This document shows, in pieces, positions 28,354 through 61,901 of a stretch of 64,000 nt of DNA. Below the pieces are notes generated by a model. The model ran no database searches. It saw only the letters and a program-made list of their open reading frames with translations, and had not been told where the DNA came from. A program made the position numbers and the translations under genes. Source of the DNA: an uncultured bacterium (GTDB lineage Bacteria; Bacillota_I; Bacilli_A; RFN20; CAG-826); NCBI GenBank assembly GCA_949283025.1, contig CASDRB010000012.1, positions 197,384-261,383 on the forward strand, read 5' to 3'. Positions within the stretch are counted from its first letter, which is position 1. Each line of letters starts with the position of its first letter.

Positions 28354-29133
28354 ATGAAAAAATTAACAAAGCATGCAAGTAGAAGAAAATGGATTCTTGG
28401 TGGCGTACTAGCTTTTGCTGGCGTAACTCTATTAACTGTTGGTACTGCTACTTGGATTGTTGGACAAGATAGTTCTAGCAAAGATGAAGACATTCAAGTA
28501 TCAGTTGACTCAGTTGAAAATAGGTCAGTAGTGTTGACGACCAAATTATCAGATAGTGCGATTGAATTAAAAGAGACTAAGGAACCAGCAGAAGACGGTA
28601 TTCTAGGACTTGAAGGTGGAGCGACTCCAGATGCATTAAAAATTACATTTAGTGAAATTAAATTAACTTATGGTAACAATTATTTCAATTCGGATAGCGA
28701 TAGTTTAAAATTTGATTTTTCAATCAAATATCACGACGAAGAAGGTAGCGCTACAAATTCGCAAAATTTAGTTAAAGAAAGTAAAATTGGCACTAAGCGA
28801 GTTCAAGATAAAACAGCAGCTTCTATTAAAAATGAAAGCAATGATTCGTGGGAATATGTTGCTGCACCTGAACCATTGACTTTATCTGGCAGCGGAGGAA
28901 CTGGTGATACAGATCCTACTAGCGGTTTAAAAACTATCACATACACTAGTAAAACTGTAGAATTTAGATGGGGTAGCTTCTTTAATAATGAATCACCTTG
29001 CACATATTACAACAAATTGACTTTTGACAATGAATTAAAAGCGATGAATGATATTACTAATGAATTAGAAGCTATGCAAGTTTTAAGTAAAATTAGTTTA
29101 ACTATCTCTGTTTCAGTTGTTAAAGGAGCTTAA
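28354..29133 (+). CDS. Secreted protein with SipW-cognate (TasA/camelysin-type) N-terminal signal peptide. Paralog 1 of 5. Candidate fibre/matrix subunit.
   Basis: 259 aa. N-terminus 'KKWILGGVLAFAGVTLLTVGTATWIVGQDSS' has a basic n-region, a hydrophobic core and a G-T-A-T-W-x-x-G-x-D box, resembling B. subtilis TasA '...GGGTWAAFND'. Strong RBS. Clear paralogy to the next ORF ('DIQVSVDSVENRSVVLTT' versus 'NITVSVADVQDKSLIITE'). Confidence 0.5.
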   Translation: MKKLTKHASRRKWILGGVLAFAGVTLLTVGTATWIVGQDSSSKDEDIQVSVDSVENRSVVLTTKLSDSAIELKETKEPAEDGILGLEGGATPDALKITFSEIKLTYGNNYFNSDSDSLKFDFSIKYHDEEGSATNSQNLVKESKIGTKRVQDKTAASIKNESNDSWEYVAAPEPLTLSGSGGTGDTDPTSGLKTITYTSKTVEFRWGSFFNNESPCTYYNKLTFDNELKAMNDITNELEAMQVLSKISLTISVSVVKGA

Positions 29134-29135
29134 AA

Positions 29136-29873
29136 ATGAAAATTAAACACAATAAAATTTTAACCTATTCAATGTTAGGTTTAGCTGCTGTATCATTAGT
29201 AGGCGTCGCGTTTTCATCATGGTTAGTCCAAGAGACTCAAGGAGCAAAAGTTGAAAACATCACTGTGTCAGTCGCCGATGTTCAAGACAAAAGTTTAATC
29301 ATAACTGAAGCAAAAGTTGATGAATATAATAAGACTTTCCTTTTTGATGCTAAAGAAGATGATACAACTGGGCCTATTATTTATACAGGTGAGACTGGTG
29401 GGGAAGATTTGAATTTTGGAATTACTTTTAAAGTAGAAAAAGCCTTAAATGCAAATGGCACTGCCGCTGCAGATAATTTTGGTGGCGTCTATGTTAAATG
29501 GGAAGTCACTGACGATGATGCCGGACGAGCTTTAAAAAACGCTATAACTAATAATTACATTGTTTCACCTTTGTCCGATAGCAATGTTGCTCTTCCTTCA
29601 TTTACTAATATTGGAGCTGATAGCGGAACTACTGTTAGTGGAACTAATGTTCAGGTCACATATGATGCTGATACAGTAACTAAAACCACTCTTACTGTTT
29701 CAGTCACATTTAGTTTTGCTTGGGGGAGTAAAACTGGCAGTCAAAATCCAGGAGAGTATGCTACTACCGATGATCCCGCTACTACACAAACTGCATTACA
29801 AGTTTTAATTGATTTGCAAGCCGCTAATAATGCGAAGTTTAACATTGTCTTAACTCCATTTTTAAAAGCATAA
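29136..29873 (+). CDS. Secreted protein with SipW-cognate signal peptide. Paralog 2 of 5.
   Basis: 245 aa. 'LGLAAVSLVGVAFSSWLVQETQGA'. RBS AAAGGAG. Thr/Ser/Asp/Asn-rich beta-type composition. Followed by a terminator. Confidence 0.5.
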   Translation: MKIKHNKILTYSMLGLAAVSLVGVAFSSWLVQETQGAKVENITVSVADVQDKSLIITEAKVDEYNKTFLFDAKEDDTTGPIIYTGETGGEDLNFGITFKVEKALNANGTAAADNFGGVYVKWEVTDDDAGRALKNAITNNYIVSPLSDSNVALPSFTNIGADSGTTVSGTNVQVTYDADTVTKTTLTVSVTFSFAWGSKTGSQNPGEYATTDDPATTQTALQVLIDLQAANNAKFNIVLTPFLKA

Positions 29874-29947: not shown

Positions 29948-30994
29948 ATGAACAGTTTAGAAATTCTTTCATTAATTATCACTTTTATCTGTTTGATAAG
30001 TTTTTGCATCGTTTTTACATTTTTATTTCGTGCCTATTTTAAAAATACGATAAAAAATATCAATGAAGGAAAAGAAGATATTGAATTAATTGATCAAGCT
30101 GTCATCGATGAGCAAAAAAAACATTCTAAAAAACAAAAAGTTTTAAAAGTAACCGGTAAGGTCATCTCATATACCATATTAGGCGCACTTATTGCTTTTT
30201 TTGGAATGGCCATCATTTCTAGAATAGCAGGTAATACTTTATTTTTTGGAGATACTACTGTAGTAGTTATCGCTTCTGGTTCAATGTCGAAAAAAAATAG
30301 CGCTAATACATATTTGCAAACATACGATTTAAACAATCAAATCGACACATATGATATAATTGGCATTAGCAAATATAAAAATTCACAACAAGTAAAATTG
30401 TACGATGTTGTCGCTTTTAAAGCTGATAACGGGGTCACAATTGTTCATCGCATTATAGATATTCAATATGATGATGATGGTATCGCTTATTACACTACAC
30501 GCGGAGATTCTAATGCGATAAGCGATAATGGTAGTTTATATAATGGCTATTTGACGTATGAAAATCTGGTTGGATATTATAACGGGGTGCGAGTTCCAAT
30601 ATTAGGTTCGTTTGTTATTTTTTTACAATCAGGTTCAGGAATTATTACTATTCTTTCCATCATATATTGTTTCGTGATGTTTGATGTATATAAAAAGAAA
30701 CTAGATGATGCAATTATCAATCGTAGCAATATGCTTATAGAATTGATAGATTATGATCCATCAAACGGCGATATCATTAATGATTTTAAACAAGAGTTGT
30801 ACTATCAAGGAATCAAATATACTTTCAAAGACGGACAATTTATCGATAAGTCTGAAACAATCGACGAACGTTTCAAAGATGTTGATAAAGATGATATGGT
30901 ATTTGTTAATGAAAGCAAAAATGAAACGTCTATTAAAATAAAGAATACTAAAAACAATCACATAAGTGATTTAAATGATAAGCGTGATAAATGA
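29948..30994 (+). CDS. sipW: Sec11/SipW-type (S26B) signal peptidase I with an extra N-terminal TM and a C-terminal cytoplasmic extension of about 100 aa
   Basis: 348 aa. Ser box 'VVIASGSMSKK', His box 'TIVHRIIDI' and 'TTRGDSNAISD' match the Sec11/SipW family (SGSMEP ... VHRV ... TKGDNN..D). TM helices flank the catalytic domain. The extra tail is 'DVYKKKLDDAIINRSN...KRDK'. Ends with a TGA stop. Confidence 0.7.
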   Translation: MNSLEILSLIITFICLISFCIVFTFLFRAYFKNTIKNINEGKEDIELIDQAVIDEQKKHSKKQKVLKVTGKVISYTILGALIAFFGMAIISRIAGNTLFFGDTTVVVIASGSMSKKNSANTYLQTYDLNNQIDTYDIIGISKYKNSQQVKLYDVVAFKADNGVTIVHRIIDIQYDDDGIAYYTTRGDSNAISDNGSLYNGYLTYENLVGYYNGVRVPILGSFVIFLQSGSGIITILSIIYCFVMFDVYKKKLDDAIINRSNMLIELIDYDPSNGDIINDFKQELYYQGIKYTFKDGQFIDKSETIDERFKDVDKDDMVFVNESKNETSIKIKNTKNNHISDLNDKRDK

Positions 30995-31007
30995 GGGGGA
31001 ACACACT

Positions 31008-32819
31008 ATGAAAACACACTTTACACGAAAGAATTTTATCGTCTTATCTTGTGTCTTTTTTTATTTAGTCATCACTGCCTTTTGTGCATTGTGCCTAGAT
31101 GCTAAAAGTTCAATAGTAAGAGACGGCAATCCAATTCAATTAATTGCTAAAGCATTCGGATTTACTTTAGTATCAATTAATTTAGCAACTGGAGTATTAT
31201 GCGCGATGTTAGGAATTTATACATTGCTTTTTGCCGCTGCACTAATTTATGAAACAAGACTAGCAAAATACTATGGTGAAAAGGCTAACTCATTAAAATG
31301 GTTGGGAATTTATGTTATTACTTTTGTAGTTTGTTATGGACTAGCTATCGGCATTGGAGTTATCGCGCATATTCCAGTTGACGCTACTGCATTAGGATAT
31401 TCATTTTCATTTTGTTTACAAGCCTTTTTAATTGGCTTAATTATTTTCATATTTGCGGCAGCATTAGTCTTGTTTGCCCTACTTTTAATTTTGAACATCA
31501 AAAATTATGGAAAGCCATATAAATGGTTTGGACCAAAAGTTGAAAAGGCTGAATTAGATGAAAAACTTCAAGAAAGAATTGAAGAAAATAAACAGATTGA
31601 ACAGGGCTTATTGGCCGCTGCATTTGGCGATGTAAAAGCTCAGGGAGTCGCTCATACTACTGAATCAAACACAAATAGTTCCACTTCTGCAAATTCATCG
31701 TTAGAAAACAATTATAATTTAGTGAAAGAAAGGGTCTTCCCTGGTTTATGCAAAATTGACACTATTCATGAGATTGTTTTGCAAGAAGATTTTGCTAACG
31801 ACATAAACTTAGCCACTCTTTGTGAACAATTCCGAAACTATTTGGCTTCACATGAAAGATTATACTATGATATGCCAACTATTCGCGCTTTTGTGGCAGG
31901 ATTAAGTGCATCTCGTTTAATTATTTTAGAAGGTCTTTCTGGTACTGGTAAATCTTCAATCGCTCGTTATTTTTCTGATTTTATTAACGAAAAGTCATTT
32001 TTTGTTCCTGTTCAAGCTACTTGGCGCGATCGTACATCAGTATTAGGATTTTTTAATGATTTTTCCAAAACTTATAATGAAACCGAATTTTTAAAACATC
32101 TATATGAAGCCACATATCGAGCAAGACATGTCAATATCATGGTTTTAGATGAAATGAATATTTCCCGTATTGAATATTATTTTGCTGATTTCTTGTCAAT
32201 TATGGAATATCCGATGAATGACTGGGTTTTAAAAATAATGCAATTACCATATGATTTTGAAGCACCTCTGCATTTAGAAGATGGTGAACTTCACATTCCT
32301 GAAACGACTTGGTTTATCGGCACCGCAAATAAAGATGACTCAACATATACAATTACTGATAAAGTCTATGACCGTGCTATAGTCATCTCTTTTAGCGATC
32401 GAAACGAACCATTCCAAGTTGTTGGAAAATCTGACCCAATCACTTTATCTTATGATTATTTAATGGAACTATATAATCATGCTCAAAAAGATGAAGATAA
32501 TCGTTTAAATGGCGCTGACATCGCTAAATTTAAAACTATCACTGACCAAATTTATGATTCGTTTGATTTGACGTTTGGTAATCGTATCATGAATCAAATC
32601 GAATTATTTGTTCCAACATTTGTTGCTTGTGGCGGAACAAAAGAAGAAGCATTAGACTTTATGTTAGCCCGCAAGGTTTTAATTAAACTTGATGGCCGCT
32701 TTGAAGAATATGTTAAAAAAGGATTAGAAGAATTATTAAAATTAATCAAAAAAACTTATGGCAAAGGCAATTTTGCTTTGAGCCAAGAATTAATTGAAAG
32801 ATTATTAAAACGCTTCTAA
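31008..32819 (+). CDS. Membrane-anchored McrB-like AAA+ (AAA_5) NTPase: 4 N-terminal TM helices and a Ser/Asn-rich linker, followed by the NTPase domain
   Basis: RBS GAGGGGG lies before ATG 31008 (the track ORF begins upstream at 30975). Walker A 'LEGLSGTGKSSIARY', McrB-type Walker B/sensor 'IMVLDEMNISRIEYYFADFLSIMEY' (compare McrB 'IDEINRAN...GEL..LLE') and 'WFIGTANKDDSTYTITDKVYDRAIVISF' (compare 'GTMNtaDrs...lD.AlrRRF'). The first roughly 200 aa are polytopic membrane. Confidence 0.5.
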   Translation: MKTHFTRKNFIVLSCVFFYLVITAFCALCLDAKSSIVRDGNPIQLIAKAFGFTLVSINLATGVLCAMLGIYTLLFAAALIYETRLAKYYGEKANSLKWLGIYVITFVVCYGLAIGIGVIAHIPVDATALGYSFSFCLQAFLIGLIIFIFAAALVLFALLLILNIKNYGKPYKWFGPKVEKAELDEKLQERIEENKQIEQGLLAAAFGDVKAQGVAHTTESNTNSSTSANSSLENNYNLVKERVFPGLCKIDTIHEIVLQEDFANDINLATLCEQFRNYLASHERLYYDMPTIRAFVAGLSASRLIILEGLSGTGKSSIARYFSDFINEKSFFVPVQATWRDRTSVLGFFNDFSKTYNETEFLKHLYEATYRARHVNIMVLDEMNISRIEYYFADFLSIMEYPMNDWVLKIMQLPYDFEAPLHLEDGELHIPETTWFIGTANKDDSTYTITDKVYDRAIVISFSDRNEPFQVVGKSDPITLSYDYLMELYNHAQKDEDNRLNGADIAKFKTITDQIYDSFDLTFGNRIMNQIELFVPTFVACGGTKEEALDFMLARKVLIKLDGRFEEYVKKGLEELLKLIKKTYGKGNFALSQELIERLLKRF

Positions 32820-32822: not shown

Positions 32823-34184
32823 TTGATAATTATGCAAAAAGATAAATTTTTGGTTAAGATAAATGAATCGTTTATTCAAGCGCTTGGAATAAAGTGCGAT
32901 TTTAATAATGTAATTAAGGCGATTCATAAACAAGAAATATCTCTTTTTAGTCAACATCTTGAATCAGATTTATCATTTTTTGAAGAAATCAATTCTTTGA
33001 TTGATAAAATGATGAATATTATTTATCACCCCCATTTTCAAACGACGACAAATGAAGTTGTATTAAGAAGTGAAATTAGCCAATCTTTAAACCAAGAATC
33101 TTTTATCAAAACCACAAACGATCCATCTCTTTGGAAACAAAAACCAAACAAAGAAATGTATCCAGAATATGTTCATTCTATTGAATACATCGACACCTTG
33201 AATATCTATGAAAACAGGGTACTAATTTATGTTTATGAACAAATCTTAGCTTTTTTAGAAAACTATAAAAGTCAAACGATAACCCAAAATTCTTCTATTC
33301 AAGAATTTTATAAGCAAAAAGGTTTAGTTTTTGCTAAGCACAACATCGTCGATGATTTATTAAAAAACAAAAAAAGGATTGCCGAATTTATTCAAGGTGA
33401 TGAAGAAAAAATAGCGGAAATGAATACATTTTTAAAAGTGTATAAAAAAGCTAAAAGAATTAAATTAACTAGTTTTTATAAATTGCTTCGCCATGAAAAA
33501 ATTGCTCTGCCGTTAATGCCTACTAATATTTTAATTCACGACCTTAATTACAATTCAATTTATCGTTTTTATAAAAAATATCTAGTAGTCAAAACCGAAA
33601 AAGATGGAACTACTTATGAAGAATTAGCAAACTACATCTTCATACGTCTAATTGATGATTTAATAACATCAAAGTATAAATTTAACAAATTTAGCAAAAT
33701 AAAAATAAATCAACTTATTTTGCATCCAACAAAACCATTTGTTTGCCGCAAAGATGGTTTTAGATATTCAATTGATTATCAATTCCCGAATATTGATGTT
33801 TGTGTCTCATATAACAAATCTGCTTTAGCTTTTCATCGTTTAACAATAAGAGATAAATTATCAAATTATAGTTTTATTGATGATCGTGATATCAACACAT
33901 TTTATATCACGCTTAACAATGAATGTGATCAATACTTCAATGTTGTCGATATTAACATTAATAAACAAAACAATGATGAGCATATCTTCGACAATTTATT
34001 CAAATCAATGCGCGTTAATATTCCGTATAAAAACGATAAAGTTGAACGATGTCCAGTATGTGGTGGCATGCGTTTACAAAAGGACAAAAATTATTATTAT
34101 TGCGATAATTGTGGTTCAAAGCTTGCTAAACTAAAAATTAAGAGCAAACCGAGTCTTTGGATACAATCTTTGTGGAGGTATTGA
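32823..34184 (+). CDS. Hypothetical soluble protein with C-terminal C4 zinc ribbon. Genetic partner of the AAA_5 NTPase.
   Basis: 453 aa. C-terminal 'CPVCGGMRLQKDKNYYYCDNCGS'. No recognisable catalytic motif by eye. Starts 3 nt after the NTPase gene and ends (TGA) 2 nt before the ABC ATPase gene. Confidence 0.35.
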   Translation: MIIMQKDKFLVKINESFIQALGIKCDFNNVIKAIHKQEISLFSQHLESDLSFFEEINSLIDKMMNIIYHPHFQTTTNEVVLRSEISQSLNQESFIKTTNDPSLWKQKPNKEMYPEYVHSIEYIDTLNIYENRVLIYVYEQILAFLENYKSQTITQNSSIQEFYKQKGLVFAKHNIVDDLLKNKKRIAEFIQGDEEKIAEMNTFLKVYKKAKRIKLTSFYKLLRHEKIALPLMPTNILIHDLNYNSIYRFYKKYLVVKTEKDGTTYEELANYIFIRLIDDLITSKYKFNKFSKIKINQLILHPTKPFVCRKDGFRYSIDYQFPNIDVCVSYNKSALAFHRLTIRDKLSNYSFIDDRDINTFYITLNNECDQYFNVVDININKQNNDEHIFDNLFKSMRVNIPYKNDKVERCPVCGGMRLQKDKNYYYCDNCGSKLAKLKIKSKPSLWIQSLWRY

Positions 34185-34186
34185 TA

Positions 34187-34969
34187 ATGGCAGATAATCA
34201 AATGTTAAAAATTAACCAAGATATTTTAACTAACAACTTGCCTGACATTGCAATAAGTTTTGAAGACCTTCATAAATCATATGGAAAAAAGGAAGTGTTA
34301 AAAGGAATCACTTTGCAAATCAAAAAAGGCGAGATTTTTGGTTTTTTAGGAAAAAACGGAGTAGGCAAATCCACTACGATAGATTGCCTTGTCGGATTAA
34401 AAGATTATAATTCAGGAACAATTAAAATTTTTGATTTGGATATCAAAAAAAATCCATTAGAAGCCAAGTCTTTATTTGGTTATGTCCCATCTGAACCTAT
34501 GACTTACGAACTCATGAGCGGGTATGAGTATCTACAATTTGTTTCGGCCGCTTATGAAATGAGTCAAGAATCATTTGATGAAAACTATCAATTCTTAAAA
34601 GAAAAATTTGCCATAGGAGACGAGGATTTAAATCGAAGAATCATCGAATATTCTCATGGTATGAAACAAAAGGTTTGTTTGATGGCCTCATTAATTCATA
34701 ATCCAAAATTATGGATTATGGATGAACCAACAGTCGGTTTAGATGTCATGGTTTATGAAACATTATTAAAAATGATGAAGGAGTATTCAAAAAGCGGAAA
34801 TACTATTTTTGTTACTTCACATAACATTGATTTAGTCGCTTCAATTTGCGATCGAGTCGCTATCATTAATAATGGTAATATAGTCAATTTGATTGACTTT
34901 AATAAAGAACCATTAAAAAGAAAGGATTTAAAACGCATCTTTTTTAGGGTGTATGGCATCAATTTATGA
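34187..34969 (+). CDS. ABC transporter ATP-binding protein (NosF/ABC-2 type)
   Basis: RBS GGAGG lies before ATG 34187. Walker A 'GKNGVGKST', signature 'YSHGMKQKV' and Walker B 'LWIMDEPT'. Confidence 0.8.
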   Translation: MADNQMLKINQDILTNNLPDIAISFEDLHKSYGKKEVLKGITLQIKKGEIFGFLGKNGVGKSTTIDCLVGLKDYNSGTIKIFDLDIKKNPLEAKSLFGYVPSEPMTYELMSGYEYLQFVSAAYEMSQESFDENYQFLKEKFAIGDEDLNRRIIEYSHGMKQKVCLMASLIHNPKLWIMDEPTVGLDVMVYETLLKMMKEYSKSGNTIFVTSHNIDLVASICDRVAIINNGNIVNLIDFNKEPLKRKDLKRIFFRVYGINL

Positions 34970-36573
34970 TTTTATCTTTGGTTGGCAAAGAATATGTTGA
35001 AGCAAAAGAAAATGCTTCTAAATCAACCATAGCAGTTAAATGGATATTAACCGTATTGCTATATGCTTTTTTTGTTGCGTTAGAAGTATATATTTTTATT
35101 GCTATAAATAATAAATTGGATGAAATGTCATCATATGGCTCGTTTGATTTTATTTGTGTTTATTTATTTGTCATTACTATTATTTCTTCTATCATAGTCG
35201 TCAATAAAGCCAGAATTTCCATCTTTAAAGAAAAAGATCGGCTTTTATTATCTAAATTACCAATTACAAGTGATGATATCGTCATTTCAAAAGTTATTTA
35301 TATATATTTAAAAGAAGTCGCTAATTCTTTAATATTGGCCGCTCCTATTTTAATAACTTATGGCGCCCTTCACGAATTAAAGACTGGGTATTATATCTTT
35401 TCTTGTTTGTATCCTTTTTTTATTTCTTTTTTTAGCATCGGCGTCACAATGATTATTCTTATTCCATATAACTATATTTATAACTTTTTAAAGAAAAGAT
35501 ATATTTTACAAATTATTGTATCGTCTATTTTAGTTATTGGCTTATGCTTTGTTTATAAATACGTTTTAGAATTATTTTTAAATATTGTTAACAATTCCAA
35601 ATTGGATTATTTATTTTCTGAATCATTTATGGAATCGATCAATAAAACTGCCAGTTATTTGATACCAGTAAGTTCATATTTAAAAATGATTACAATTAAA
35701 ACTAATTTAGTTAGCAACACTTCTATATTTATTGGAGTATGTTTATTATTTAGTGTCATTGGCTTTTTCTTAGCTAGTTCATTATTAAAAAAATCACAAT
35801 TTGCCACTTCTGAAGAAACTTCAAGTGGTAAAATTAAAATCAAAAAGATAAAAACTGCCAAAAAAGCCTTAATTAGCAAGGAATTAATGTTGATTTTTAG
35901 AAACTCTAATTTCATTTTTACTTATACCGCCTTGATTATTATGCAGCCTTTTTTGACGTTGGTAGTCATCACTTCTTTAAACAAATTATTATATGATAGC
36001 CTAGAAATGTTTTTAATCTATTATCCAGAGATGATTAATGGTATCAATATTTGTATTATCTTGCTATTTTCATCTATTATTGGCGCTAGTTCAATTGAAC
36101 CATTATCAAGGGAAGGGAAAGGGCTATTAACCGTCAAACAAATCCCTATTTCTCCTATTACACAAACTTTGATTAAAATATCTATTACATCAATTATCTC
36201 TATTTTTTCTTTATTGATTTCAAATATCGTTTTGATTGGCACTTCCACTATTTCTGCAACTGTTTTTTGGGTTTCATTAGGGATAGGGATTTTGTTCACA
36301 ATTGAATTAAATATTTTGGGTTTGTTTTTAGATTTAAGACGTTTGGATGTTGATAAAAAAGCAAACATGACTTATCTTTCAGCTTTTGTATCCTTTGCTT
36401 TTCCGTTGTTATTAGGGATAATTCATTTTGCTTTAACCTTTATAAGGGTCAATGCCACCTATATTTATTTAATTGAATTTGGGCTAGCAATAATTGTTAT
36501 GATTCCTTTAATTTTGATGTATAAAAAAATAGTTAATGATGGTTTTACCAAGATGAGGAGTGAATTATTATGA
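34966..36573 (+). CDS. Large polytopic membrane protein, probable ABC-2-type permease partner
   Basis: 535 aa with at least 12 hydrophobic helices. Its ATG overlaps the ATPase stop (ATGA), and its stop overlaps the next start. Confidence 0.45.
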   Translation: MILSLVGKEYVEAKENASKSTIAVKWILTVLLYAFFVALEVYIFIAINNKLDEMSSYGSFDFICVYLFVITIISSIIVVNKARISIFKEKDRLLLSKLPITSDDIVISKVIYIYLKEVANSLILAAPILITYGALHELKTGYYIFSCLYPFFISFFSIGVTMIILIPYNYIYNFLKKRYILQIIVSSILVIGLCFVYKYVLELFLNIVNNSKLDYLFSESFMESINKTASYLIPVSSYLKMITIKTNLVSNTSIFIGVCLLFSVIGFFLASSLLKKSQFATSEETSSGKIKIKKIKTAKKALISKELMLIFRNSNFIFTYTALIIMQPFLTLVVITSLNKLLYDSLEMFLIYYPEMINGINICIILLFSSIIGASSIEPLSREGKGLLTVKQIPISPITQTLIKISITSIISIFSLLISNIVLIGTSTISATVFWVSLGIGILFTIELNILGLFLDLRRLDVDKKANMTYLSAFVSFAFPLLLGIIHFALTFIRVNATYIYLIEFGLAIIVMIPLILMYKKIVNDGFTKMRSELL

Positions 36574-39008: not shown

Positions 39009-39009
39009 C

Positions 39010-43882: not shown

Positions 43883-43884
43883 AA

Positions 43885-57057: not shown

Positions 57058-57088
57058 ATCAAAATAAAAGGTGTAGATTTGCTACACC
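57058..57088 (-). terminator. Rho-independent terminator ending fibre module B
   Basis: Stem ggtgtag / ctacacc with loop atttg. The plus-strand A-run 57058-57069 gives a T-run on the minus strand. The hairpin overlaps the sipW-like stop codon. Confidence 0.5.
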
Positions 57089-58737
57089 TAGTTATCTTCT
57101 TGTTCTTGAGTTTCACCACTTAAAATTTTTTCTTTAAGCTCTTGATAATGATCTTTGATTGGAATTTCTTTTTTATTAAGACCATCTTTGCTCATACAAT
57201 CCTTTATTAATTCCAACGCTCTTTTTAATGATAAAGTGGAACGGACTTTTAAGACGACAGGAATATCGGCATAAACACCTTTATTTCCAACATCTTTAAC
57301 AGGATAAGTTGTGTTTTCATAATCTTTATAATCTAATGCTAGATATAATTTTAAATTTTTGCCAGAAATAGCAATTTTACAATATGCTTTCTTATGCAAT
57401 CTAAATGTATCACCGGTAGCAGAAATACGAGATTTAACACCATAAGATAAAATTTCTTGTTTCATCGCATTATATCGGCTTTGCAATTCTTCATCTAGTT
57501 CTAAGAAACGTTGAGAAAATGAAATGCGGTCATAAGCTTTCGTTTTTCTTGGAGCGCCTGTTGAAGTAAACAAATGAGAACGCAAAGAATCATCTTCATC
57601 TTGCTCTTCTTTAATTTCTTCTACATTTGTTTCCTCATTATTTTGATTAGTGTCTACTGCTTGAGATTCATCCATTAAATTGTCTTCAACAGCATTATCT
57701 TGCGCTGTAGAAACTACTTCGTTATCTTTTTCTTGTTCGATTTGTTCAACTTGTTCAGTATTTTCTTTTCTTGTTGCCCAATCTAAATAATGAATTTCGT
57801 TTTCCTTAATAATCGCATCATCAATTTCATTTTCAAAACGAGTGTATAAATATTGTTTTCTCAAATTTATTTTTTTGCCTAAATAAATGTCTAAAATATC
57901 ATAAAAACCAATCAACACTAATGCTAAAGCAATGGTTATCATACCTATTCCAGATTGAATATAATAAATTACTATTCCTAATCCAAAATTTTGAAAACCG
58001 TTATATTTTCCAATTATATCTTGATATGTTAATCCTATTTCATAACCAGCACTCGATGTATTAGCATCGCCTCGAGCCGTAAAATATTTAACTCCTTCGT
58101 GTTCATAAATATCAATAACTCTATGAACAACAATATTATTATTGTCATCTTTAAAAGCAATAATATCATATAAATCAATATCGCCTTCTTCAACTTTATT
58201 AATACCAATTAAAGAATAGGTAGAAATTTGATTTGTTAAATTGTTTTCAATTAAATATTTATTATCTGGGTCCACTTTTTCCATTGAACCTGATTTAATA
58301 ATTAAACACGAGGTATCATTAATCATAAATAAGTCGCCTGACGCTCTAACATAAATAGCAAATCCCATAAATGCGACAAAGCAAATATAAACAACAATTA
58401 ACACGATATTTGCGACCATTTTAATGATATTTGCAGATTTTCTACCTTTTTCAATGTGCTGAGTAAAAGGAACGACATTTTCTTGTTTATATTCAACGGG
58501 TTGTTGATGATCATTTACTAAAGCTTCGGTTTTTAAAAAGTACTTTTTGTTTTCTAAAATAACTTCTCTTGCTATATAAGAATCTTCAACTTTATGATCG
58601 ATGCACTTTGCATAATATCGATAATAAAGATAAAACAAAACACCAAAACCTATCACAAGCAAAACAATGACACTGATTGAGACCGCCAATGAAATGGCTT
58701 CTAAATTGGATACACTATTTAAAATGATATTTGTCAT
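57088..58737 (-). CDS. sipW: Sec11/SipW-type (S26B) signal peptidase I, second copy, with a 2-TM N-terminal extension and a C-terminal cytoplasmic extension of about 230 aa including an acidic low-complexity tract
   Basis: 549 aa. Ser box 'LIIKSGSMEKV', His box 'IVVHRVIDI' and 'TARGDANTSS'. Three TM segments. Tail 'QVEQIEQEKDNEVV...EEQDEDDS' followed by a folded basic domain. Confidence 0.65.
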   Translation of the reverse strand: MTNIILNSVSNLEAISLAVSISVIVLLVIGFGVLFYLYYRYYAKCIDHKVEDSYIAREVILENKKYFLKTEALVNDHQQPVEYKQENVVPFTQHIEKGRKSANIIKMVANIVLIVVYICFVAFMGFAIYVRASGDLFMINDTSCLIIKSGSMEKVDPDNKYLIENNLTNQISTYSLIGINKVEEGDIDLYDIIAFKDDNNNIVVHRVIDIYEHEGVKYFTARGDANTSSAGYEIGLTYQDIIGKYNGFQNFGLGIVIYYIQSGIGMITIALALVLIGFYDILDIYLGKKINLRKQYLYTRFENEIDDAIIKENEIHYLDWATRKENTEQVEQIEQEKDNEVVSTAQDNAVEDNLMDESQAVDTNQNNEETNVEEIKEEQDEDDSLRSHLFTSTGAPRKTKAYDRISFSQRFLELDEELQSRYNAMKQEILSYGVKSRISATGDTFRLHKKAYCKIAISGKNLKLYLALDYKDYENTTYPVKDVGNKGVYADIPVVLKVRSTLSLKRALELIKDCMSKDGLNKKEIPIKDHYQELKEKILSGETQEQEDN

Positions 58738-58758: not shown

Positions 58759-61260
58759 CTATTTTGGAACAACTTGCAAGAAGTAATTTTTACGCACGAT
58801 AAATGGATTTTCCACATAATCTTGATATGCAACATACTCACCTGTAACAACATCTTGTAGACGTTTACCTTTTTGATCATAGTATTTAAGGAGTTGCTCA
58901 AAAGTTACTATATTGCCGCTAACTCCAATTTCAGATGGAATAGTCAATCCTGCTTGCCTGACATAATTATCGGTTCCTAAAATTGGTGTTTCTAAATAAT
59001 AATAGTCTTCGCAACGATATGAATACCTGCTAGTATCTAAATAATTTGAGCCCACTTCTAATATTTGTCCACCAAAATCATCTGGATCATAAATGTTAAC
59101 AAAGATGTTATGCAGACGATATGTCCAAATATCGACTGAATTTGGTATGTTATTTATATCATAATTTATGATTGTATATATGTTATATGTTCCAGTAACT
59201 TTAAATCTGATTAACTTAACATTATTATAAACAGCGTTCCATTCAGCAGAACCTTTACCCCACTCTGCAAGAGATTTTAATTCACTTGGGGCTCCATTAT
59301 TGTATGTTCTAACTTTGATACGTCTTAAATCTTCTGTATATAAAGTATTTCCGTCCACCGAAGTATATTTTCCATCCATTACATCTTGCAAAGATACCAA
59401 ATATTTTTTTGAAGAATAAACTTCTTCTATTTCATTACCATTGATATCTTTGTACTTATACACCGGTGCGTCATATTTCAAATTAGGATCCAAAGAGTCA
59501 GTAAATTCAGAATCATTAGGATTAGTATTATCTTGTCCATATAACTTTTGATCATATATTGTATTTTGGTCTAAAGCCACTTGAATGGCAAAATAATAAG
59601 CTGGTATCAAATATTGCCTTCTTGGAGTTCCATCATCATTATAAAAAGTATAATCAATATATTTTAATGTTGGATCATTATCATTACTAGGAACATTGAC
59701 TGTTCTATTTCTTAATTCATAACTTCTTAAAAGGGTACCGCTAGTGCCTTGTCTTGTAAAATTTAATTTATAAGATTGAGGATTATTATAATCAAGAGCT
59801 AAAGATGAACCACCGATAACCCTAGGCTCATAAACTCTTTCAACAACGATATATGTGCCACGTATGTTTCCTTCATAAGCGAATGTATTTGATAAATCTG
59901 TTTTATAAGATTCATAAATATAAATTCCATCATTTCTTAACATGCTATCAATATAGTCAATTTGATCGCCAGTAAAATTGCCATTCTCATAATAATTATC
60001 GTAATATTGGTTGCCTGTATCATAAGATTCTTTTACAAAAAAGTAAATATTATATCTTCCTATCTGATCATTTAAAGGAAAATCTGAGAAAATATTTCTT
60101 GAATGTTCATTGCCCGCCCAAGAACTACCATAACAGTTGATATCATTTCTTATAATATACTTGCCAACGACAGAATCACTATTTAAATTTGATTCATTAA
60201 TTAAAAGATTTGTATAACGATACGCCTCATATTTTATACCATAATAGTATGTTTTTAATTGGGGTAGCCAATCAACCCATTCCCATACATCATAGCTGCT
60301 TTCTTTTACTCCTGCAAAAGAGGCATTTTTTTGTAATGTGTCACTAAACTCTTTGTCGTAAGAAAAATTTAAAGAACCGCTATTGGTAAAAATTTCTACA
60401 CATTCTTTTAAATTATCTTTATTTCCAGCATCATATGAATAATTATCTTTTCCAGTCGAATACATAGGATAAAAAACTATTGTTTTTCTTCCATCAATCG
60501 TAATAGCGCAATCATTATAAATGCTCAATAACGTATTAAAACGAGCAAGTTCGGTAGTAGTAGAATACGATCCTGCTACATAATGATAACCATTAGCATC
60601 ACTTGGCGTTTTCCCACTTCTTTTATATGTATTGCCATCATAAGATAGGCCCCAGCCCATAAAATTTAAATAATAAAATTTATTATCATTAACTTCAGAA
60701 CTTCTATCTAGTAACCCGCACTTCAAATCACTATTATTTTTAGAATTTACAGGTAAAACATTTGGATTACTTAAATCATCGAGCATGCCGTTAGTCACTT
60801 CTGCAACATTACGATAAATTCTTGGTCCAATATAACAATTATTCACAATATAATTACTTTGTGTGGATTCATCTGGCCAATTTGTTTCATCATAAATCCA
60901 TTTCCCATAATATCCTTGTGCTTCTTGTTGGCCTTCTGGGATGTAAACCCATAGTGAATCATTGCTTTTATATTCGTTTGTTCCACCTTCAACTGGAGTT
61001 AATTTACTAGTTATGTCAACATTTTGAGCTAAAAACACAACATCATAATATTCAACATCGTTAACAACAACATCGCTTTCTTCACCAAAAGTTTGGTTGG
61101 CTCTTATTGCATCTCCAATTGGTGATGCTTGTTCAGAAATATTAAAATTATTAGCAAAATAAAAGGTGGAATATGCTGTTGTTACAACCATGCCCAATGC
61201 ACCGACAACTAAAAACGATGCAATGATAGGTTTTTTGAAAAAACTTTTAATATTCATCAT
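58759..61260 (-). CDS. Large secreted/surface protein (833 aa) with a SipW-cognate-like signal peptide
   Basis: 'KKPIIASFLVVGALGMVVTTAYSTFYFANNFN' (compare TasA 'GGGTWAAFND'). Tyr/Asn/Gly-rich. Its ATG overlaps the stop of the upstream small paralog (TAATG). Confidence 0.4.
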   Translation of the reverse strand: MMNIKSFFKKPIIASFLVVGALGMVVTTAYSTFYFANNFNISEQASPIGDAIRANQTFGEESDVVVNDVEYYDVVFLAQNVDITSKLTPVEGGTNEYKSNDSLWVYIPEGQQEAQGYYGKWIYDETNWPDESTQSNYIVNNCYIGPRIYRNVAEVTNGMLDDLSNPNVLPVNSKNNSDLKCGLLDRSSEVNDNKFYYLNFMGWGLSYDGNTYKRSGKTPSDANGYHYVAGSYSTTTELARFNTLLSIYNDCAITIDGRKTIVFYPMYSTGKDNYSYDAGNKDNLKECVEIFTNSGSLNFSYDKEFSDTLQKNASFAGVKESSYDVWEWVDWLPQLKTYYYGIKYEAYRYTNLLINESNLNSDSVVGKYIIRNDINCYGSSWAGNEHSRNIFSDFPLNDQIGRYNIYFFVKESYDTGNQYYDNYYENGNFTGDQIDYIDSMLRNDGIYIYESYKTDLSNTFAYEGNIRGTYIVVERVYEPRVIGGSSLALDYNNPQSYKLNFTRQGTSGTLLRSYELRNRTVNVPSNDNDPTLKYIDYTFYNDDGTPRRQYLIPAYYFAIQVALDQNTIYDQKLYGQDNTNPNDSEFTDSLDPNLKYDAPVYKYKDINGNEIEEVYSSKKYLVSLQDVMDGKYTSVDGNTLYTEDLRRIKVRTYNNGAPSELKSLAEWGKGSAEWNAVYNNVKLIRFKVTGTYNIYTIINYDINNIPNSVDIWTYRLHNIFVNIYDPDDFGGQILEVGSNYLDTSRYSYRCEDYYYLETPILGTDNYVRQAGLTIPSEIGVSGNIVTFEQLLKYYDQKGKRLQDVVTGEYVAYQDYVENPFIVRKNYFLQVVPK

Positions 61261-61865
61261 TATCCCACCCTTTCATAAGTTATGTTTAAAGTTAAGGTTA
61301 CTTTTTCATCTTTATACAAATTTAATTGTTCAAGCATCGTAACAAACTTAGCGGATGAATCTGGTTTCATACCGCTTTTGTAACGAAATAAAGGTGTTAA
61401 TGTATAAGTTTTTGTTCCTGCAGTTAAATCAACATTTAAAAATCCTTCTTGATTTTCAACAAATTCAGCATATGTATTGAAAGCAATATTATTTCCAACA
61501 TCAAATCCTAATTGATATTTGAAATCATAACCGCTCAAATTTGCATAATCATCACCTAAAGAACCTTCGGCAATAGGATTAAAATCAAACACGAGATTTG
61601 GAACAAAATTAACACCAACATCTTCATTGCCTATTTCATTGTCTCCGCCTTGTTCAAAAACAATGCGATAGTTTTCATATCCTAATGTAGTTGGACCAAT
61701 TAGGTTTATTTCTCCTAATTCGCATTTAGTAGCAATGGTTATTCCAAATGCTATTTGATCGTTTTGGGTTTGGTTAGTAAAAATCCATGCTCCAAATCCA
61801 GCAGTTACAACTGTAGCAAAAGAAATAAGCGGAACAAAAAGTTGTGCTAAAAAACGTTTAAACAT
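61260..61865 (-). CDS. Secreted protein with SipW-cognate signal peptide. Paralog 4 of 5.
   Basis: 201 aa. 'LFVPLISFATVVTAGFGAWIFTNQTQND'. The shared block 'FEQGGDNEIGNEDVGVNF' corresponds to 'YTGETGGEDLNFGITF' in paralog 2. Confidence 0.45.
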   Translation of the reverse strand: MFKRFLAQLFVPLISFATVVTAGFGAWIFTNQTQNDQIAFGITIATKCELGEINLIGPTTLGYENYRIVFEQGGDNEIGNEDVGVNFVPNLVFDFNPIAEGSLGDDYANLSGYDFKYQLGFDVGNNIAFNTYAEFVENQEGFLNVDLTAGTKTYTLTPLFRYKSGMKPDSSAKFVTMLEQLNLYKDEKVTLTLNITYERVG

Positions 61866-61901
61866 CTTATTTATTTATATATTTATTTCTAAACTATATT
61901 A

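What the first reader, a model, noticed from the sequence alone, without database searches (positions are those of the whole stretch)
29948..30994. SipW/Sec11-type signal peptidases with non-canonical architecture (extra N-terminal TM segments and long cytoplasmic C-terminal tails)
Both S26B peptidases keep the catalytic boxes (SGSM(S/E)K, VHR(I/V)IDI, T(T/A)RGD(S/A)N). Canonical SipW/Sec11 is about 190 aa with a TM-catalytic domain-TM layout. Here copy 1 (348 aa) adds a preceding TM and a cytoplasmic tail of about 100 aa. Copy 2 (549 aa, 57088-58737) adds two N-terminal TMs, an acidic low-complexity tract (about 60 aa of E/D/Q/N) and a basic domain of about 170 aa.

Cytoplasmic extensions on a signal peptidase suggest coupling to a cytoplasmic partner or regulation. 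This may tie substrate processing to the downstream AAA_5 NTPase or to assembly.
Basis: partly seen in the sequence, partly recalled or inferred. Interest (0 to 1): 0.65.

Follow-up and report, generated by a model that had tools for sequence, protein, structure and literature searches.

The report
Three-helix SipW peptidases with modular tails
Two genes in this window encode SipW/Sec11-type signal peptidases that carry one extra membrane helix and long cytoplasmic tails. They belong to a large unannotated family in uncultured gut Bacilli and sit beside their probable secreted substrates; one copy is also always followed by a membrane-anchored McrB-like NTPase.

Summary
Both ORFs are intact S26B (SipW/Sec11-type) peptidases with the Ser and His boxes.

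- **Membrane layout.** Each has three hydrophobic helices: one extra N-terminal helix (TM0), the canonical anchor, and the C-terminal helix. Copy 2 therefore adds one helix, not two.
- **Not an artefact.** About 110 of 140 representatives at 50% identity have two helices before the Ser box. TM0 is as conserved as the catalytic domain or more so.
- **Tails are modular.** Copy 1 has a conserved juxtamembrane helix followed by a poorly modelled beta-rich stretch. Copy 2 has an acidic linker and then a confidently folded, net-basic domain of about 135 aa. That domain also occurs alone, in tandem, and at the C-terminus of unrelated membrane proteins. It matches only PADLOC candidate PDC-S18.
- **Neighbours.** Upstream genes encode small and large secreted paralogs that share a G-F-x-x-W-[IV]-[FV] signal motif.
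- **Copy-1 cluster.** In 74 of 74 informative loci, copy-1 orthologs are followed by a 4-TM NTPase with McrB-like motifs (NxD signature), a DUF2357 (McrC-like) zinc-ribbon protein and an ABC transporter. This resembles the 'CoCoPALM' association named, but not described, by Bell et al. 2024.

Coupling through the tails is inferred, not shown.

The parts
29948..30994 (+). Copy 1: 348-aa SipW/Sec11-type (S26B) signal peptidase with TM0 and a cytoplasmic tail
   Evidence: ORF. TIGR02228 53.7 bits, above the cut-off. phmmer to human SEC11C/A, E 2.6e-6. Foldseek to 7p2q_A, E 4e-5. 215 homologs.
29972..30028 (+). Copy 1 extra N-terminal helix TM0 (residues 9-27; N-terminus predicted outside)
   Evidence: Hydropathy 2.89. 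AF2 helix 3-39. F23, L26, F27 and Y30 invariant; E5, T12, C15, L16, S18 and F19 at 90% or more. Mean identity to orthologs 0.66, against 0.56 for the catalytic domain.
30029..30160 (+). Copy 1 Lys-rich loop between TM0 and TM1 (residues 28-71), predicted cytoplasmic, with invariant G41 and D44 (G-x-E-D motif)
   Evidence: The motif is shared with the copy-2 family (VED) and with the distant homolog P0223.
30161..30217 (+). Copy 1 canonical N-terminal anchor TM1 (residues 72-90)
   Evidence: The SipW model starts at residue 67.
30227..30622 (+). Copy 1 catalytic domain (residues 94-225): Ser112 (30281-30283), His167 (30446-30448), Asp187, Asp193 (30524-30526)
   Evidence: These residues are invariant in 54 sequences. 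pLDDT is about 90 or higher. D193 aligns with the second Asp of the SEC11 'VDD'.
30632..30688 (+). Copy 1 C-terminal helix TM-C (residues 229-247)
   Evidence: Mean identity 0.65.
30689..30991 (+). Copy 1 cytoplasmic tail (residues 248-348): conserved juxtamembrane helix to about residue 267, semi-conserved beta-hairpin stretch to about 303, variable end
   Evidence: R259 invariant; L263, Y286, Y291 and G296 at 90% or more. pLDDT 45-66 beyond residue 277. Identity falls from 0.47 to 0.36 to 0.19 along the tail.
57088..58737 (-). Copy 2: 549-aa paralog (28% identity to copy 1, aligned from TM0 to just past TM-C)
   Evidence: Orthologs P0121-P0143.
58633..58689 (-). Copy 2 extra helix TM0 (residues 17-35)
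58351..58407 (-). Copy 2 canonical anchor TM1 (residues 111-129)
57988..58341 (-). Copy 2 catalytic domain (Ser151, His205, Asp224; Glu233 in place of the second Asp)
57886..57987 (-). Copy 2 C-terminal hydrophobic region TM-C (residues about 251-284)
57553..57762 (-). Copy 2 acidic low-complexity linker (residues 326-395)
   Evidence: 22 D/E against 3 K/R. Other proteins carrying the same C-terminal domain also have acidic or Pro-rich linkers.
57130..57528 (-). Copy 2 C-terminal mobile alpha/beta domain ('A6 domain', residues 404-536)
   Evidence: HMM match at 404-536, E 1.4e-63. AF2 block-mean pLDDT 88-97 over model residues 21-150. 50-60% identical to the C-termini of unrelated membrane proteins and to stand-alone proteins. 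12 of 13 members hit PADLOC PDC-S18.
28354..29133 (+). 259-aa secreted paralog, probable substrate (signal ends ...TVGTATWIVG)
   Evidence: Present upstream in 66 of 67 informative loci together with the 245-aa paralog.
29136..29873 (+). 245-aa secreted paralog, probable substrate (signal ends ...GVAFSSWLV)
30975..32819 (+). 614-aa protein: 4 TM helices, a short Glu/Lys-rich helical stretch, then a P-loop NTPase with McrB-like motifs (probable true start ATG 31008)
   Evidence: AAA_5 in 24 of 26 orthologs. Walker A GLSGTGKSS, Walker B MVLDE, signature GTANKD(D/E)ST. PADLOC PDC-M26A E 1.6e-39. Follows the peptidase in 74 of 74 loci.
32823..34184 (+). 453-aa DUF2357 (McrC N-terminal-like) protein with a C-terminal C4 zinc ribbon
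   Evidence: PF09823 in 17 of 27 orthologs, best E 3.9e-10. C410, C413, C427 and C430 invariant; no invariant acidic residue or Lys in the C-terminal half.
34157..36573 (+). ABC transporter ATPase (34157-34969) and 535-aa permease (34966-36573), conserved members of the cluster
   Evidence: PF00005 E 1.7e-24; PF16949 E 7.6e-4. Conserved gene order.
58759..62525 (-). Locus 2 probable substrates: 207 aa (61902-62525), 201 aa (61260-61865) and 833 aa (58759-61260), with signals ...GSGFSAWVF, ...TAGFGAWIF and ...TTAYSTFYF
   Evidence: The same arrangement is seen in ortholog loci L084-L086.

Best explanation
Both genes encode active, dedicated ER/archaeal-type (Ser-His) signal peptidases. Each most likely removes the signal peptides of the secreted proteins encoded beside it.

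Those neighbours are two to six small paralogs plus a large protein. All carry a conserved G-F-x-x-W-[IV]-[FV] motif at the end of the hydrophobic core. The layout parallels tapA-sipW-tasA of Bacillus subtilis and sipW-bsaABC of Clostridium perfringens. There, SipW cleavage releases membrane-anchored subunits that assemble into surface fibres.

The enzyme is built on a three-helix membrane module with the N-terminus outside:
- TM0;
- a Lys-rich cytoplasmic loop with a G-x-E-D motif;
- TM1;
- the external catalytic domain;
- TM-C;
- a cytoplasmic tail.

TM0 is ancestral to the whole family and is at least as conserved as the catalytic domain. I infer that it is an integral part of the enzyme's membrane core, probably shaping where the unusual signal peptides dock. 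I do not think it is a partner-specific add-on.

The tails are interchangeable cytoplasmic adaptors.
- In the copy-1 subfamily, the conserved juxtamembrane helix and small beta-rich stretch plausibly dock the peptidase to the co-encoded membrane-anchored NTPase and its DUF2357 partner. Processing or release of subunits would then be tied to an NTP-driven step.
- In copy 2, a flexible acidic linker carries a net-basic domain with weak fold matches to YjbR, DUF1801 and DUF5655 proteins. Many unrelated membrane proteins of the same lineage carry the same domain. This suggests a shared cytoplasmic docking target, possibly a polyanion such as nucleic acid.

Shown: family membership, catalytic residues, architecture, conservation, synteny. 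Inferred: the substrates, the cleavage, the role of TM0, and any tail-partner contact.
For: - **Peptidase identity.** NCBIfam SipW/TIGR02228 hits. SEC11A/C are the best sequence matches and the best fold matches. S112, H167, D187 and D193 are invariant in 54 sequences. Ser, His and a conserved Glu are kept in the copy-2 family.
- **Architecture and topology.** Three hydrophobic segments. The N-terminus has no positive charge, while the loop and the tail start are Lys-rich. AF2 helices agree.
- **Family size.** 1369, 571 and 108 representatives at E <= 1e-3, 1e-10 and 1e-30. Nearly all of the top 150 align from query residues 1-8. 109 of 140 new representatives have two hydrophobic segments before the Ser box; tails range from 9 to 438 aa.
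- **TM0 conservation.**
- **Substrate link.** Paralogs lie upstream in 66 of 67 loci. The same signal motif appears next to copy-2-type and more distant family members. A large secreted protein is inserted between the peptidase and NTPase genes in L014.
- **NTPase link.** 74 of 74 loci, with short or negative spacers. Conserved seven-gene order.
- **Modular tail.**
- **Precedents.** Canonical SipW has a cytoplasmic C-tail, and deleting its last 20 residues gives an adhesion defect (Terra 2012, as reported in PMC13566338). Bell et al. [quoted passage not shown] In the BsaA model, SipW cleaves after membrane-anchored oligomerisation (PMC11580942).
Against: - No experiment or structure prediction links either tail to a partner.
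- The distal half of the copy-1 tail is poorly conserved and modelled with low confidence.
- The neighbours match no known SipW substrate family. There is no Pfam Peptidase_M73/TasA hit, no PDB hit and no TIGR04088 signal hit. The cleavage site cannot be placed.
- Copy 2 scores below the TIGR02228 cut-off and lacks the second Asp.
- Some copy-2 orthologs lack the C-terminal domain entirely, so it is dispensable for the core function.
- The NTPase profile finds no solved McrB by sequence.
- TM segments come from hydropathy and AF2 helices, not from a dedicated topology predictor.
Confidence: 0.6

Rival explanations
1. The peptidases are dedicated SipW-type enzymes, but the tails are not couplers. 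They are fast-evolving spacer or regulatory tails, as in B. subtilis SipW. The McrB-like/DUF2357 pair is a functionally separate module, for example a membrane-anchored defence system, that merely shares the operon.
For: - The tail length varies from 9 to 438 aa across the family.
- The distal copy-1 tail is weakly conserved.
- The copy-2 domain is lost in some orthologs.
- The NTPase hits a PADLOC defence-candidate model, PDC-M26A, at E 1.6e-39, and the copy-2 domain hits PDC-S18.
- McrBC relatives are classically restriction systems (PMC11090510).
Against: - Linkage is 74 of 74, with translationally coupled spacing across species whose peptidases are only 37-56% identical. That is unlike the patchy distribution of defence islands.
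- The NTPase has four TM helices.
- The DUF2357 partner shows no conserved nuclease motif.
- A secreted protein gene can sit between the peptidase and NTPase genes.
- The proximal tail has invariant and near-invariant residues.
Confidence: 0.25
2. The proteins are catalytically silent assembly chaperones, like the streptococcal SipA/LepA pilus factor, rather than working peptidases.
For: - Bell et al. describe the associated signal-peptidase-family proteins as likely pilus assembly factors.
- Copy 2 lacks the second conserved Asp and scores below the family cut-off.
Against: - Ser, His and both Asp residues are invariant in the copy-1 family.
- Ser, His, the first Asp and a Glu are conserved in the copy-2 family.
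- The proteins are S26B-type with His, not the LepB-like S26A type.
Confidence: 0.07
3. The extensions are annotation or assembly artefacts, such as frameshifts that merge neighbouring ORFs or low-complexity read-through.
For: None found. Only the acidic linker of copy 2 is low-complexity.
Against: - Homologs of the same length and layout occur in hundreds of independent assemblies.
- A 98%-identical 549-aa ortholog exists.
- TM0 and the copy-2 C-terminal domain are strongly conserved, and the domain folds confidently.
Confidence: 0.01

Closest known systems
Bacillus subtilis SipW (tapA-sipW-tasA operon) and Clostridium perfringens SipW (sipW-bsaA-bsaB-bsaC)
   Same: - ER/archaeal-type Ser-His signal peptidase encoded in an operon with its own secreted substrates, small paralogs plus a larger protein.
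- N-terminal and C-terminal TM helices flank an external catalytic domain.
- Canonical SipW also has a cytoplasmic C-tail with a second, peptidase-independent role.
   Different: - About 190 aa with two TM helices; here there are three, with a conserved TM0 and loop in front.
- The tails are 100-265 aa rather than about 20.
- The proteins score far below the SipW equivalog cut-off (62 and 43 bits against 190).
- The neighbours show no detectable TasA/Peptidase_M73 homology and no TIGR04088-type signal.
Eukaryotic signal peptidase complex catalytic subunits SEC11A/SEC11C (PDB 7P2P, 7P2Q)
   Same: Best sequence and fold match for the catalytic domain. The Ser, His and Asp positions align.
   Different: SEC11 has a single TM helix and relies on separate accessory subunits for further TM helices (my own knowledge of the SPC structure, not tested here). 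In this family the extra helices are part of the same polypeptide, and there is a cytoplasmic tail.
[quoted passage not shown] 2024, eLife 13:RP94800
   Same: - A GTPase with the NxD signature followed by D/E.
- A DUF2357 McrC-like partner.
- Membrane anchoring of the GTPase.
- Association with signal-peptidase-family proteins.
   Different: - The published description is one paragraph, with details deferred to a later paper.
- It specifies an FtsB-like single TM plus coiled coil. Here there are four TM helices and a short Glu/Lys-rich helical stretch, and no DivIC/FtsB hit.
- The peptidase architecture, the substrates and the ABC transporter are not described there.
- Membership could not be tested against their sequences.
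Archaeal bundling pili, threads and cannulae (signal-peptidase-I-processed, donor-strand filaments)
   Same: Secreted beta-rich subunits with Sec signals form surface filaments after signal-peptide removal. The operons pair small subunits with a large protein.
   Different: - The archaeal operon examined has no dedicated peptidase.
- The fold of the subunits here was not determined.
- No NTPase is involved in those systems.
PADLOC candidate PDC-S18 (C-terminal region); YjbR, DUF1801 and DUF5655 proteins as weak fold matches
   Same: - The copy-2 C-terminal domain matches the C-terminal 110-130 positions of the PDC-S18 models in 12 of 13 members (E down to 3.3e-10).
- Weak fold matches to YjbR (2fki), YdhG/DUF1801 and a phage DUF5655 protein.
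   Different: - No function is known for PDC-S18.
- There are no Pfam, NCBIfam or PHROG hits.
- Here the domain is tethered to membrane proteins through long acidic linkers.

Membership tests
S26B signal peptidase I (SipW/Sec11/archaeal type; NCBIfam TIGR02228, NF046067) | Score at or above the curated HMM cut-off | tested here: inconclusive
   Copy 1: TIGR02228 53.7 against 51.85 (passes); NF046067 62.2 against 190 (fails the SipW equivalog). Copy 2: 38.1 and 43.4 bits, both below cut-off although E is 1e-9 to 1e-11. No Pfam Peptidase_S26 or S24 hit for either.
S26B signal peptidase I (SipW/Sec11/archaeal type; NCBIfam TIGR02228, NF046067) | Nucleophile Ser in an SGSM box, and a general-base His rather than Lys | tested here: met
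   S112/H167 in copy 1 and S151/H205 in copy 2. Invariant across family alignments.
S26B signal peptidase I (SipW/Sec11/archaeal type; NCBIfam TIGR02228, NF046067) | Conserved Asp pair (GDxN...D) that completes the Sec11-type active site | tested here: inconclusive
   Copy 1 has D187 and D193, both invariant; D193 aligns with the second Asp of the SEC11 'VDD'. The copy-2 family has D224 but no second Asp. An invariant Glu (E233) follows a short deletion.
S26B signal peptidase I (SipW/Sec11/archaeal type; NCBIfam TIGR02228, NF046067) | SEC11-like fold of the catalytic domain | tested here: met
   Foldseek with the copy-1 model: 7p2q_A E 4.0e-5 and 7p2p_A E 1.2e-4, ranked above the bacterial SpsB and LepB. 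Copy 2 was not modelled.
S26B signal peptidase I (SipW/Sec11/archaeal type; NCBIfam TIGR02228, NF046067) | Signal-peptide cleavage activity | not testable with these tools
   Needs biochemistry or N-terminal proteomics.
tapA-sipW-tasA-type operon (SipW with TasA-family substrates) | Neighbouring genes belong to the TasA/camelysin (Peptidase_M73) family | tested here: not met
   No Pfam family is shared by the 42 paralogs. A profile search finds no PDB sequence at E <= 10.
tapA-sipW-tasA-type operon (SipW with TasA-family substrates) | Substrates carry the SipW-cognate class signal peptide (NCBIfam TIGR04088) | tested here: not met
   No TIGR04088 hit at E <= 10 for seven N-termini. They carry their own G-F-x-x-W-[IV]-[FV] motif. 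Its resemblance to the TasA 'GGGTWAAF' is recalled from memory only.
CoCoPALM (Bell et al. 2024) | McrB-like GTPase of the NxD signature clade | tested here: inconclusive
   The GTANKD(D/E)ST motif is invariant: NxD followed by D/E, as described. AAA_5 hits are weak (best 2.2e-5). No solved McrB is found by sequence.
CoCoPALM (Bell et al. 2024) | Adjacent McrC homolog (DUF2357) | tested here: met
   PF09823 in 17 of 27 orthologs of the 453-aa protein, best E 3.9e-10. The window copy itself does not reach E <= 0.05.
CoCoPALM (Bell et al. 2024) | Association with signal-peptidase-family genes | tested here: met
   74 of 74 informative loci.
CoCoPALM (Bell et al. 2024) | [quoted passage not shown] | tested here: not met
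   There are four hydrophobic segments and a Glu/Lys-rich helical stretch of about 30 aa. No DivIC/FtsB Pfam hit in 26 orthologs. The only hint is insignificant similarity to ATP synthase subunit b (E 0.18). Coiled coils were not formally predicted.
Streptococcal SipA/LepA-type pilus chaperone (inactive S26A homolog) | Loss of the catalytic residues; LepB-like (Ser-Lys) lineage | tested here: not met
   The catalytic Ser and His are retained and invariant. The best matches are Sec11/SipW, not LepB.

The most novel reading that the evidence does not exclude
The copy-1 cluster could be a previously undescribed surface-filament assembly machine of uncultured gut Bacilli.

In this reading a membrane-anchored NxD McrB-type GTPase, from a protein family otherwise known from DNA restriction, acts as an assembly motor together with a nuclease-less McrC-like partner. 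The cytoplasmic tail and TM0 module of the three-helix SipW peptidase dock to this motor. NTP hydrolysis would then gate cleavage, release and polymerisation of the G-F-x-x-W-signal subunits, with the ABC transporter as a further component.

Separately, the copy-2 C-terminal domain would define a lineage-wide cytoplasmic 'address tag' that gathers many membrane proteins at one intracellular structure.
Probability: 0.2. Interest if true: 0.85.

Novelty: new variant of a known kind. Interest (0 to 1): 0.6.

Why it matters
- Signal peptidases of the SipW/Sec11 type are regarded as minimal two-helix enzymes. Here a large family, unannotated in Pfam and mostly labelled 'hypothetical', has a third, highly conserved helix and swappable cytoplasmic modules. 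Cleavage at the outer face of the membrane may therefore be wired to events inside the cell.
- The copy-1 cluster gives a concrete, sequence-defined example of the link between McrB-like GTPases and signal peptidases, which the literature has so far only named. If that link is functional, an AAA+ family known from restriction would be working in protein secretion or surface-filament assembly.
- The organisms are common, uncultured members of animal gut communities, so their surface structures are otherwise unknown.
- The copy-2 tail reveals a new, highly conserved domain family tethered to many membrane proteins.

Tried and rejected
- **Extensions against profile libraries.** Pfam and NCBIfam scans of TM0 plus loop, the copy-1 tail, and the copy-2 loop, linker and C-terminal domain gave nothing meaningful at E up to 10. 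PHROGs gave nothing for the copy-2 domain.
- **Sequence searches of PDB.**
  - Copy 2: no hit.
  - Paralog profile: no hit.
  - NTPase profile: no McrB.
  - DUF2357 protein: only zinc-ribbon hits.
  - Copy-2 domain: nothing.
- **Substrate tests.** The TIGR04088 SipW-cognate signal model did not hit. Profile comparison of the locus-1 paralogs with the locus-2 small proteins aligned only the signal motif or the last strand, so common ancestry of the mature parts is unproven.
- **Terminator idea.** A terminator-like hairpin sits at 29895-29912 between the second paralog and the peptidase gene. I tested it as a conserved attenuator. It is absent in most loci with short spacers, and the scan as a whole was not above chance.
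- **Stand-alone domain context.** The gene context of a stand-alone copy of the domain (P0287) was uninformative.
- **Literature.** Searches for PDC-S18 and PDC-M26 found nothing. A search for CoCoPALM found no paper beyond Bell et al. and its preprint. Terra et al. 2012 itself is not held.
- **Artefact explanation.** Considered and rejected (see the rival explanations).
Full report
**1. The observation**

Both ORFs are present and uninterrupted: 29948-30994 (+), 348 aa, and 57088-58737 (-), 549 aa.

- Pfam gives no hit for either. NCBIfam places both in the ER/archaeal-type signal peptidase I group.
  - Copy 1 scores 53.7 bits on TIGR02228 (cut-off 51.85) and 62 bits on the SipW equivalog NF046067 (cut-off 190).
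  - Copy 2 scores 38 and 43 bits, with E values of 1e-9 to 1e-11.
- The best solved relatives of copy 1 are human SEC11C and SEC11A, by sequence (E 2.6e-6) and by fold (Foldseek E 4e-5).
- The 189-position SipW model starts matching at residue 67 of copy 1 and residue 106 of copy 2. The N-terminal 65 and 105 residues are therefore additions to the canonical layout.

**2. Anatomy**

A hydropathy scan finds three segments in each protein.

| | TM0 | TM1 | TM-C |
|---|---|---|---|
| Copy 1 | 9-27 | 72-90 | 229-247 |
| Copy 2 | 17-35 | 111-129 | about 251-284 |

- Each protein thus has one extra helix in front of the canonical anchor.
- The short N-terminus carries no positive charge. The TM0-TM1 loop and the start of the tail are Lys-rich. 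Because the catalytic domain must face outward, the predicted topology is N-out, loop-in, catalytic domain out, tail-in. This rests on the positive-inside rule and was not run through a dedicated predictor.
- The AF2 model of copy 1 was built on a 54-sequence alignment and has mean pLDDT 77.
  - It shows long helices at 3-39, 61-93 and 229-267.
  - The catalytic domain has pLDDT of about 90 or more.
  - The tail beyond residue 277 is low-confidence beta-hairpins (pLDDT 45-66).
- The copy-2 tail consists of a juxtamembrane stretch, a 70-aa acidic linker (22 D/E against 3 K/R) and a net-basic region (28 K/R against 18 D/E).

**3. Are the extensions real and conserved?**

Yes.

- Copy 1 has 215 word-index homologs, nearly all 330-440 aa and covering 86-100% of the query.
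- An exhaustive HMMER scan of 1.84 billion representatives found 1369, 571 and 108 proteins at E <= 1e-3, 1e-10 and 1e-30. Almost all of the top 150 align from query residues 1-8.
- Of 140 new representatives, 109 have two hydrophobic segments before the Ser box. Most of the rest are fragments or lack a recognisable box.
- In the 54-sequence alignment the invariant catalytic residues are S112, M113, H167, R168, G186, D187 and D193.
- Residues inside TM0 and the loop are also invariant (F23, L26, F27, Y30, G41, D44) or at 90% or more (E5, L9, T12, C15, L16, S18, F19, T24).
- Mean identity to the window protein, by region:

| Region | Mean identity |
|---|---|
| TM0 | 0.66 |
| TM-C | 0.65 |
| Catalytic domain | 0.56 |
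| Juxtamembrane helix | 0.47 |
| Proximal tail | 0.36 |
| Distal tail | 0.19 |

- Copy 1 and copy 2 align from TM0 to just past TM-C (28% identity, E 1e-39). TM0 and a G-x-E-D/VED loop motif also occur in the distant homolog P0223. TM0 is therefore ancestral to the family.
- Copy-2 orthologs lack the Asp that aligns with D193 and with the second Asp of the SEC11 'VDD'. They keep an invariant Glu (E233) after a short deletion.

**4. The copy-2 C-terminal domain**

- Residues 404-536 are 50-60% identical to the C-termini of many otherwise unrelated 390-770-aa proteins. Those proteins have four to six N-terminal TM helices and long acidic or Pro-rich linkers.
- The domain also occurs in stand-alone proteins of 130-200 aa.
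- It is tandemly duplicated in some peptidase orthologs and absent from others (P0135, P0137-P0143). It recurs, often doubled, in at least 11 further peptidase representatives.
- It folds confidently as helix-helix, a beta-sheet of about six strands, then two helices. Block-mean pLDDT is 88-97 over model residues 21-150.
- Fold matches are weak:
  - YjbR (2fki, E 0.02) and YdhG/DUF1801 in PDB;
  - an unnamed phage protein (E 8.6e-6) and a DUF5655 phage protein (E 1.7e-4) in BFVD.
- No Pfam, NCBIfam or PHROG model matches. However, 12 of 13 members match the C-terminal region of the PADLOC candidate PDC-S18 (E down to 3.3e-10). I found no literature on that candidate.
- The function is open. 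A shared cytoplasmic docking role, possibly polyanion binding given the net positive charge, is my inference.

**5. Genomic context**

A scan of one genome per species found 137 species with a copy-1 relative. The 80 loci retrieved come from uncultured gut Bacilli MAGs, some deposited under other names. Labels include Candidatus Onthovivens, Enteromonas, Scatosoma and Caccosoma, CAG:568, CAG:324 and 'uncultured Mollicutes'.

- *Gene order.* The order is conserved (exact in 33 loci). Most of the other loci are contig truncations or carry extra paralogs.
  1. One to six paralogs of the 259- and 245-aa proteins.
  2. The peptidase.
  3. The 614-aa NTPase.
  4. The 453-aa protein.
  5. The ABC ATPase.
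  6. The ABC permease.
- *NTPase linkage.* The NTPase gene follows the peptidase gene in 74 of 74 loci with at least 2.5 kb downstream. Spacers are mostly -4 to +30 nt.
- *Paralog linkage.* Paralogs lie upstream in 66 of 67 loci with room.
- *Inserted gene.* In four loci the spacer is 2.6-3.0 kb. In L014 it holds a 988-aa secreted protein.
- *Start codon.* In the window, the start shared with orthologs for the NTPase is ATG 31008, behind a GAGGGGG run. That leaves a 13-nt spacer rather than a 20-nt overlap.

**6. The neighbours**

- *Small paralogs.* They share a basic N-terminus, a hydrophobic core ending in V-G-F-(A/S)-x-W-(V/I)-(V/I), and a C-terminal F-x-W-G-x-x-F...N-P motif. They match no Pfam family and no solved structure.
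- *Shared signal motif.* The same signal motif heads the three genes upstream of copy 2 (207, 201 and 833 aa). It also heads the small and large genes flanking copy-2 orthologs and more distant TM0-bearing peptidases (L084-L089). None of those loci has an NTPase of this type.
- *SipW-cognate model.* The NCBIfam SipW-cognate signal model does not hit.
- *The 614-aa protein.*
  - It has four hydrophobic segments and a short Glu/Lys-rich helical stretch.
  - Its motifs are Walker A GLSGTGKSS, Walker B MVLDE-x-N-x-x-R and an invariant GTANKD(D/E)ST.
  - That is the NxD signature followed by D/E that Bell et al. describe for one major McrB branch.
  - AAA_5 hits are weak. No solved McrB is found by sequence.
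  - PADLOC PDC-M26A matches at E 1.6e-39.
- *The 453-aa protein.* It is DUF2357 (the McrC N-terminal domain) in 17 of 27 orthologs (best E 3.9e-10). It ends in an invariant C4 zinc ribbon. No conserved nuclease-type acidic/Lys set is visible in its C-terminal half.

**7. Comparison with the literature**

- Bell et al. (eLife 2024, PMC11090510) name 'CoCoPALM' systems. [quoted passage not shown] The description is deferred to a later paper. I found no later paper.
- The cluster here shares the NxD GTPase, the DUF2357 partner, the membrane anchoring and the peptidase association. It differs in having a four-TM anchor and no FtsB/DivIC match. I treat it as CoCoPALM-like, with membership unproven.
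- Canonical SipW has one N-terminal and one C-terminal TM helix plus a short cytoplasmic tail. Deleting the last 20 residues causes an adhesion defect (Terra 2012, as summarised in PMC13566338). A functional cytoplasmic tail therefore has a small-scale precedent.
- Two operons pair SipW with small TasA-like subunits and a larger protein: tapA-sipW-tasA and sipW-bsaA-bsaB-bsaC. The BsaA model has SipW cleaving after membrane-anchored oligomerisation.

**8. Interpretation**

The best-supported reading is as follows.

- These are working, dedicated signal peptidases for the co-encoded G-F-x-x-W-signal proteins.
- They are built on an ancestral three-helix membrane core in which TM0 is an integral part. 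Its conservation and its presence in all subfamilies, whatever the neighbours, point that way.
- The cytoplasmic tails are subfamily-specific adaptors.
- For copy 1, the invariant synteny with the membrane-anchored NTPase makes a functional link very likely. Physical coupling through the tail is plausible but untested.
- For copy 2, the tail is a lineage-wide mobile domain, so its role is probably localisation or docking rather than anything specific to peptidase chemistry.

The main rival is that the tails are dispensable or regulatory and that the McrB-like pair is a separate, perhaps defensive, module. It keeps appreciable weight. The PADLOC candidate hits and the tail variability support it. 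The strict linkage, the membrane anchor and the apparent lack of a nuclease argue against it.

**9. Verdict**

- The finding is a new architectural variant of a known enzyme family, embedded in a system the literature has only named.
- Interest is moderate to high. It would rise if the peptidase-NTPase coupling or a filament product were demonstrated.

Noticed in passing
window 41606-44505 (-): A third 'small plus large' pair with no peptidase gene beside it: a 206-aa protein (43885-44505; signal ...FSLGFSSFSV) followed by a 758-aa secreted protein (41606-43882). Neither has a Pfam hit. They may be further substrates of one of the two peptidases.
   Followed up: partly
window 29895-29912 (+): A terminator-like hairpin (AACGCCTTTTTAGGCGTT followed by a T-run) lies in the 74-nt gap between the second small paralog and the copy-1 peptidase gene. 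It could lower expression of the downstream genes. It is not conserved in most ortholog loci, and the scan as a whole was at chance level.
   Followed up: yes
window 30975-31010 (+): The listed start of the NTPase ORF (30975) overlaps the peptidase gene by 20 nt. Orthologs instead begin at the equivalent of ATG 31008, which is preceded by GAGGGGG that overlaps the peptidase stop codon. The likely spacer is 13 nt.
   Followed up: yes
proteins P0144, P0149, P0156 and relatives (not in the window): A separate family of 520-600-aa proteins ends in the same C-terminal domain as copy 2. They have four to six TM helices, an acidic/Pro-rich linker and a strongly conserved internal stretch (LREVVRDIVRDEIARN ... 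TGATFGGPLVVQYFNGGINGV). Function unknown.
   Followed up: no
L081 4394-6522 and the syntenic loci L082, L083: A stand-alone copy of the copy-2 domain (P0287, 173 aa) lies directly downstream of a 531-aa protein with no Pfam hit in L081 and L082 (the upstream gene is cut by the contig end in L083). CNNM/CBS transporter genes follow in all three. It may be a split version of the fused architecture.
   Followed up: partly
L014 9031-11997; similar 2.6-3.0 kb spacers in three other loci, including L025 and L032: In L014 a 988-aa secreted protein (signal ...LGSSSFYI) lies between the peptidase and NTPase genes and overlaps the end of the peptidase gene. Only L014 was inspected.
   Followed up: partly
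window 36570-40110 (+): The cluster continues past the ABC permease. An 812-aa protein with an N-terminal hydrophobic segment starts 4 nt inside the permease gene and has no Pfam hit. A 383-aa putative lipoprotein with a Listeria-Bacteroides repeat (Flg_new, E 1.1e-10) follows. Whether these are conserved cluster members was not checked.
   Followed up: no
window 51342-57022 (-) compared with L084: The genes flanking locus 2 (Endonuclease_1-family 733-aa protein, Fe-ADH, ZIP transporter, 334-aa membrane protein, MazG-like) recur near the 65%-identical ortholog in L084 in a similar order. Locus 2 therefore sits in conserved chromosomal context rather than an obvious island. The Pfam labels for three of these are taken from the L084 table; only MazG-like and the 334-aa protein were scanned in the window.
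   Followed up: partly
window 30975-32819 (+), profile positions 141-251: The last TM helix of the NTPase and the helix after it give insignificant matches (E about 0.2) to ATP synthase subunit b, which is a TM helix followed by a long stalk helix. This fits a membrane-anchored stalk but proves nothing.
   Followed up: no
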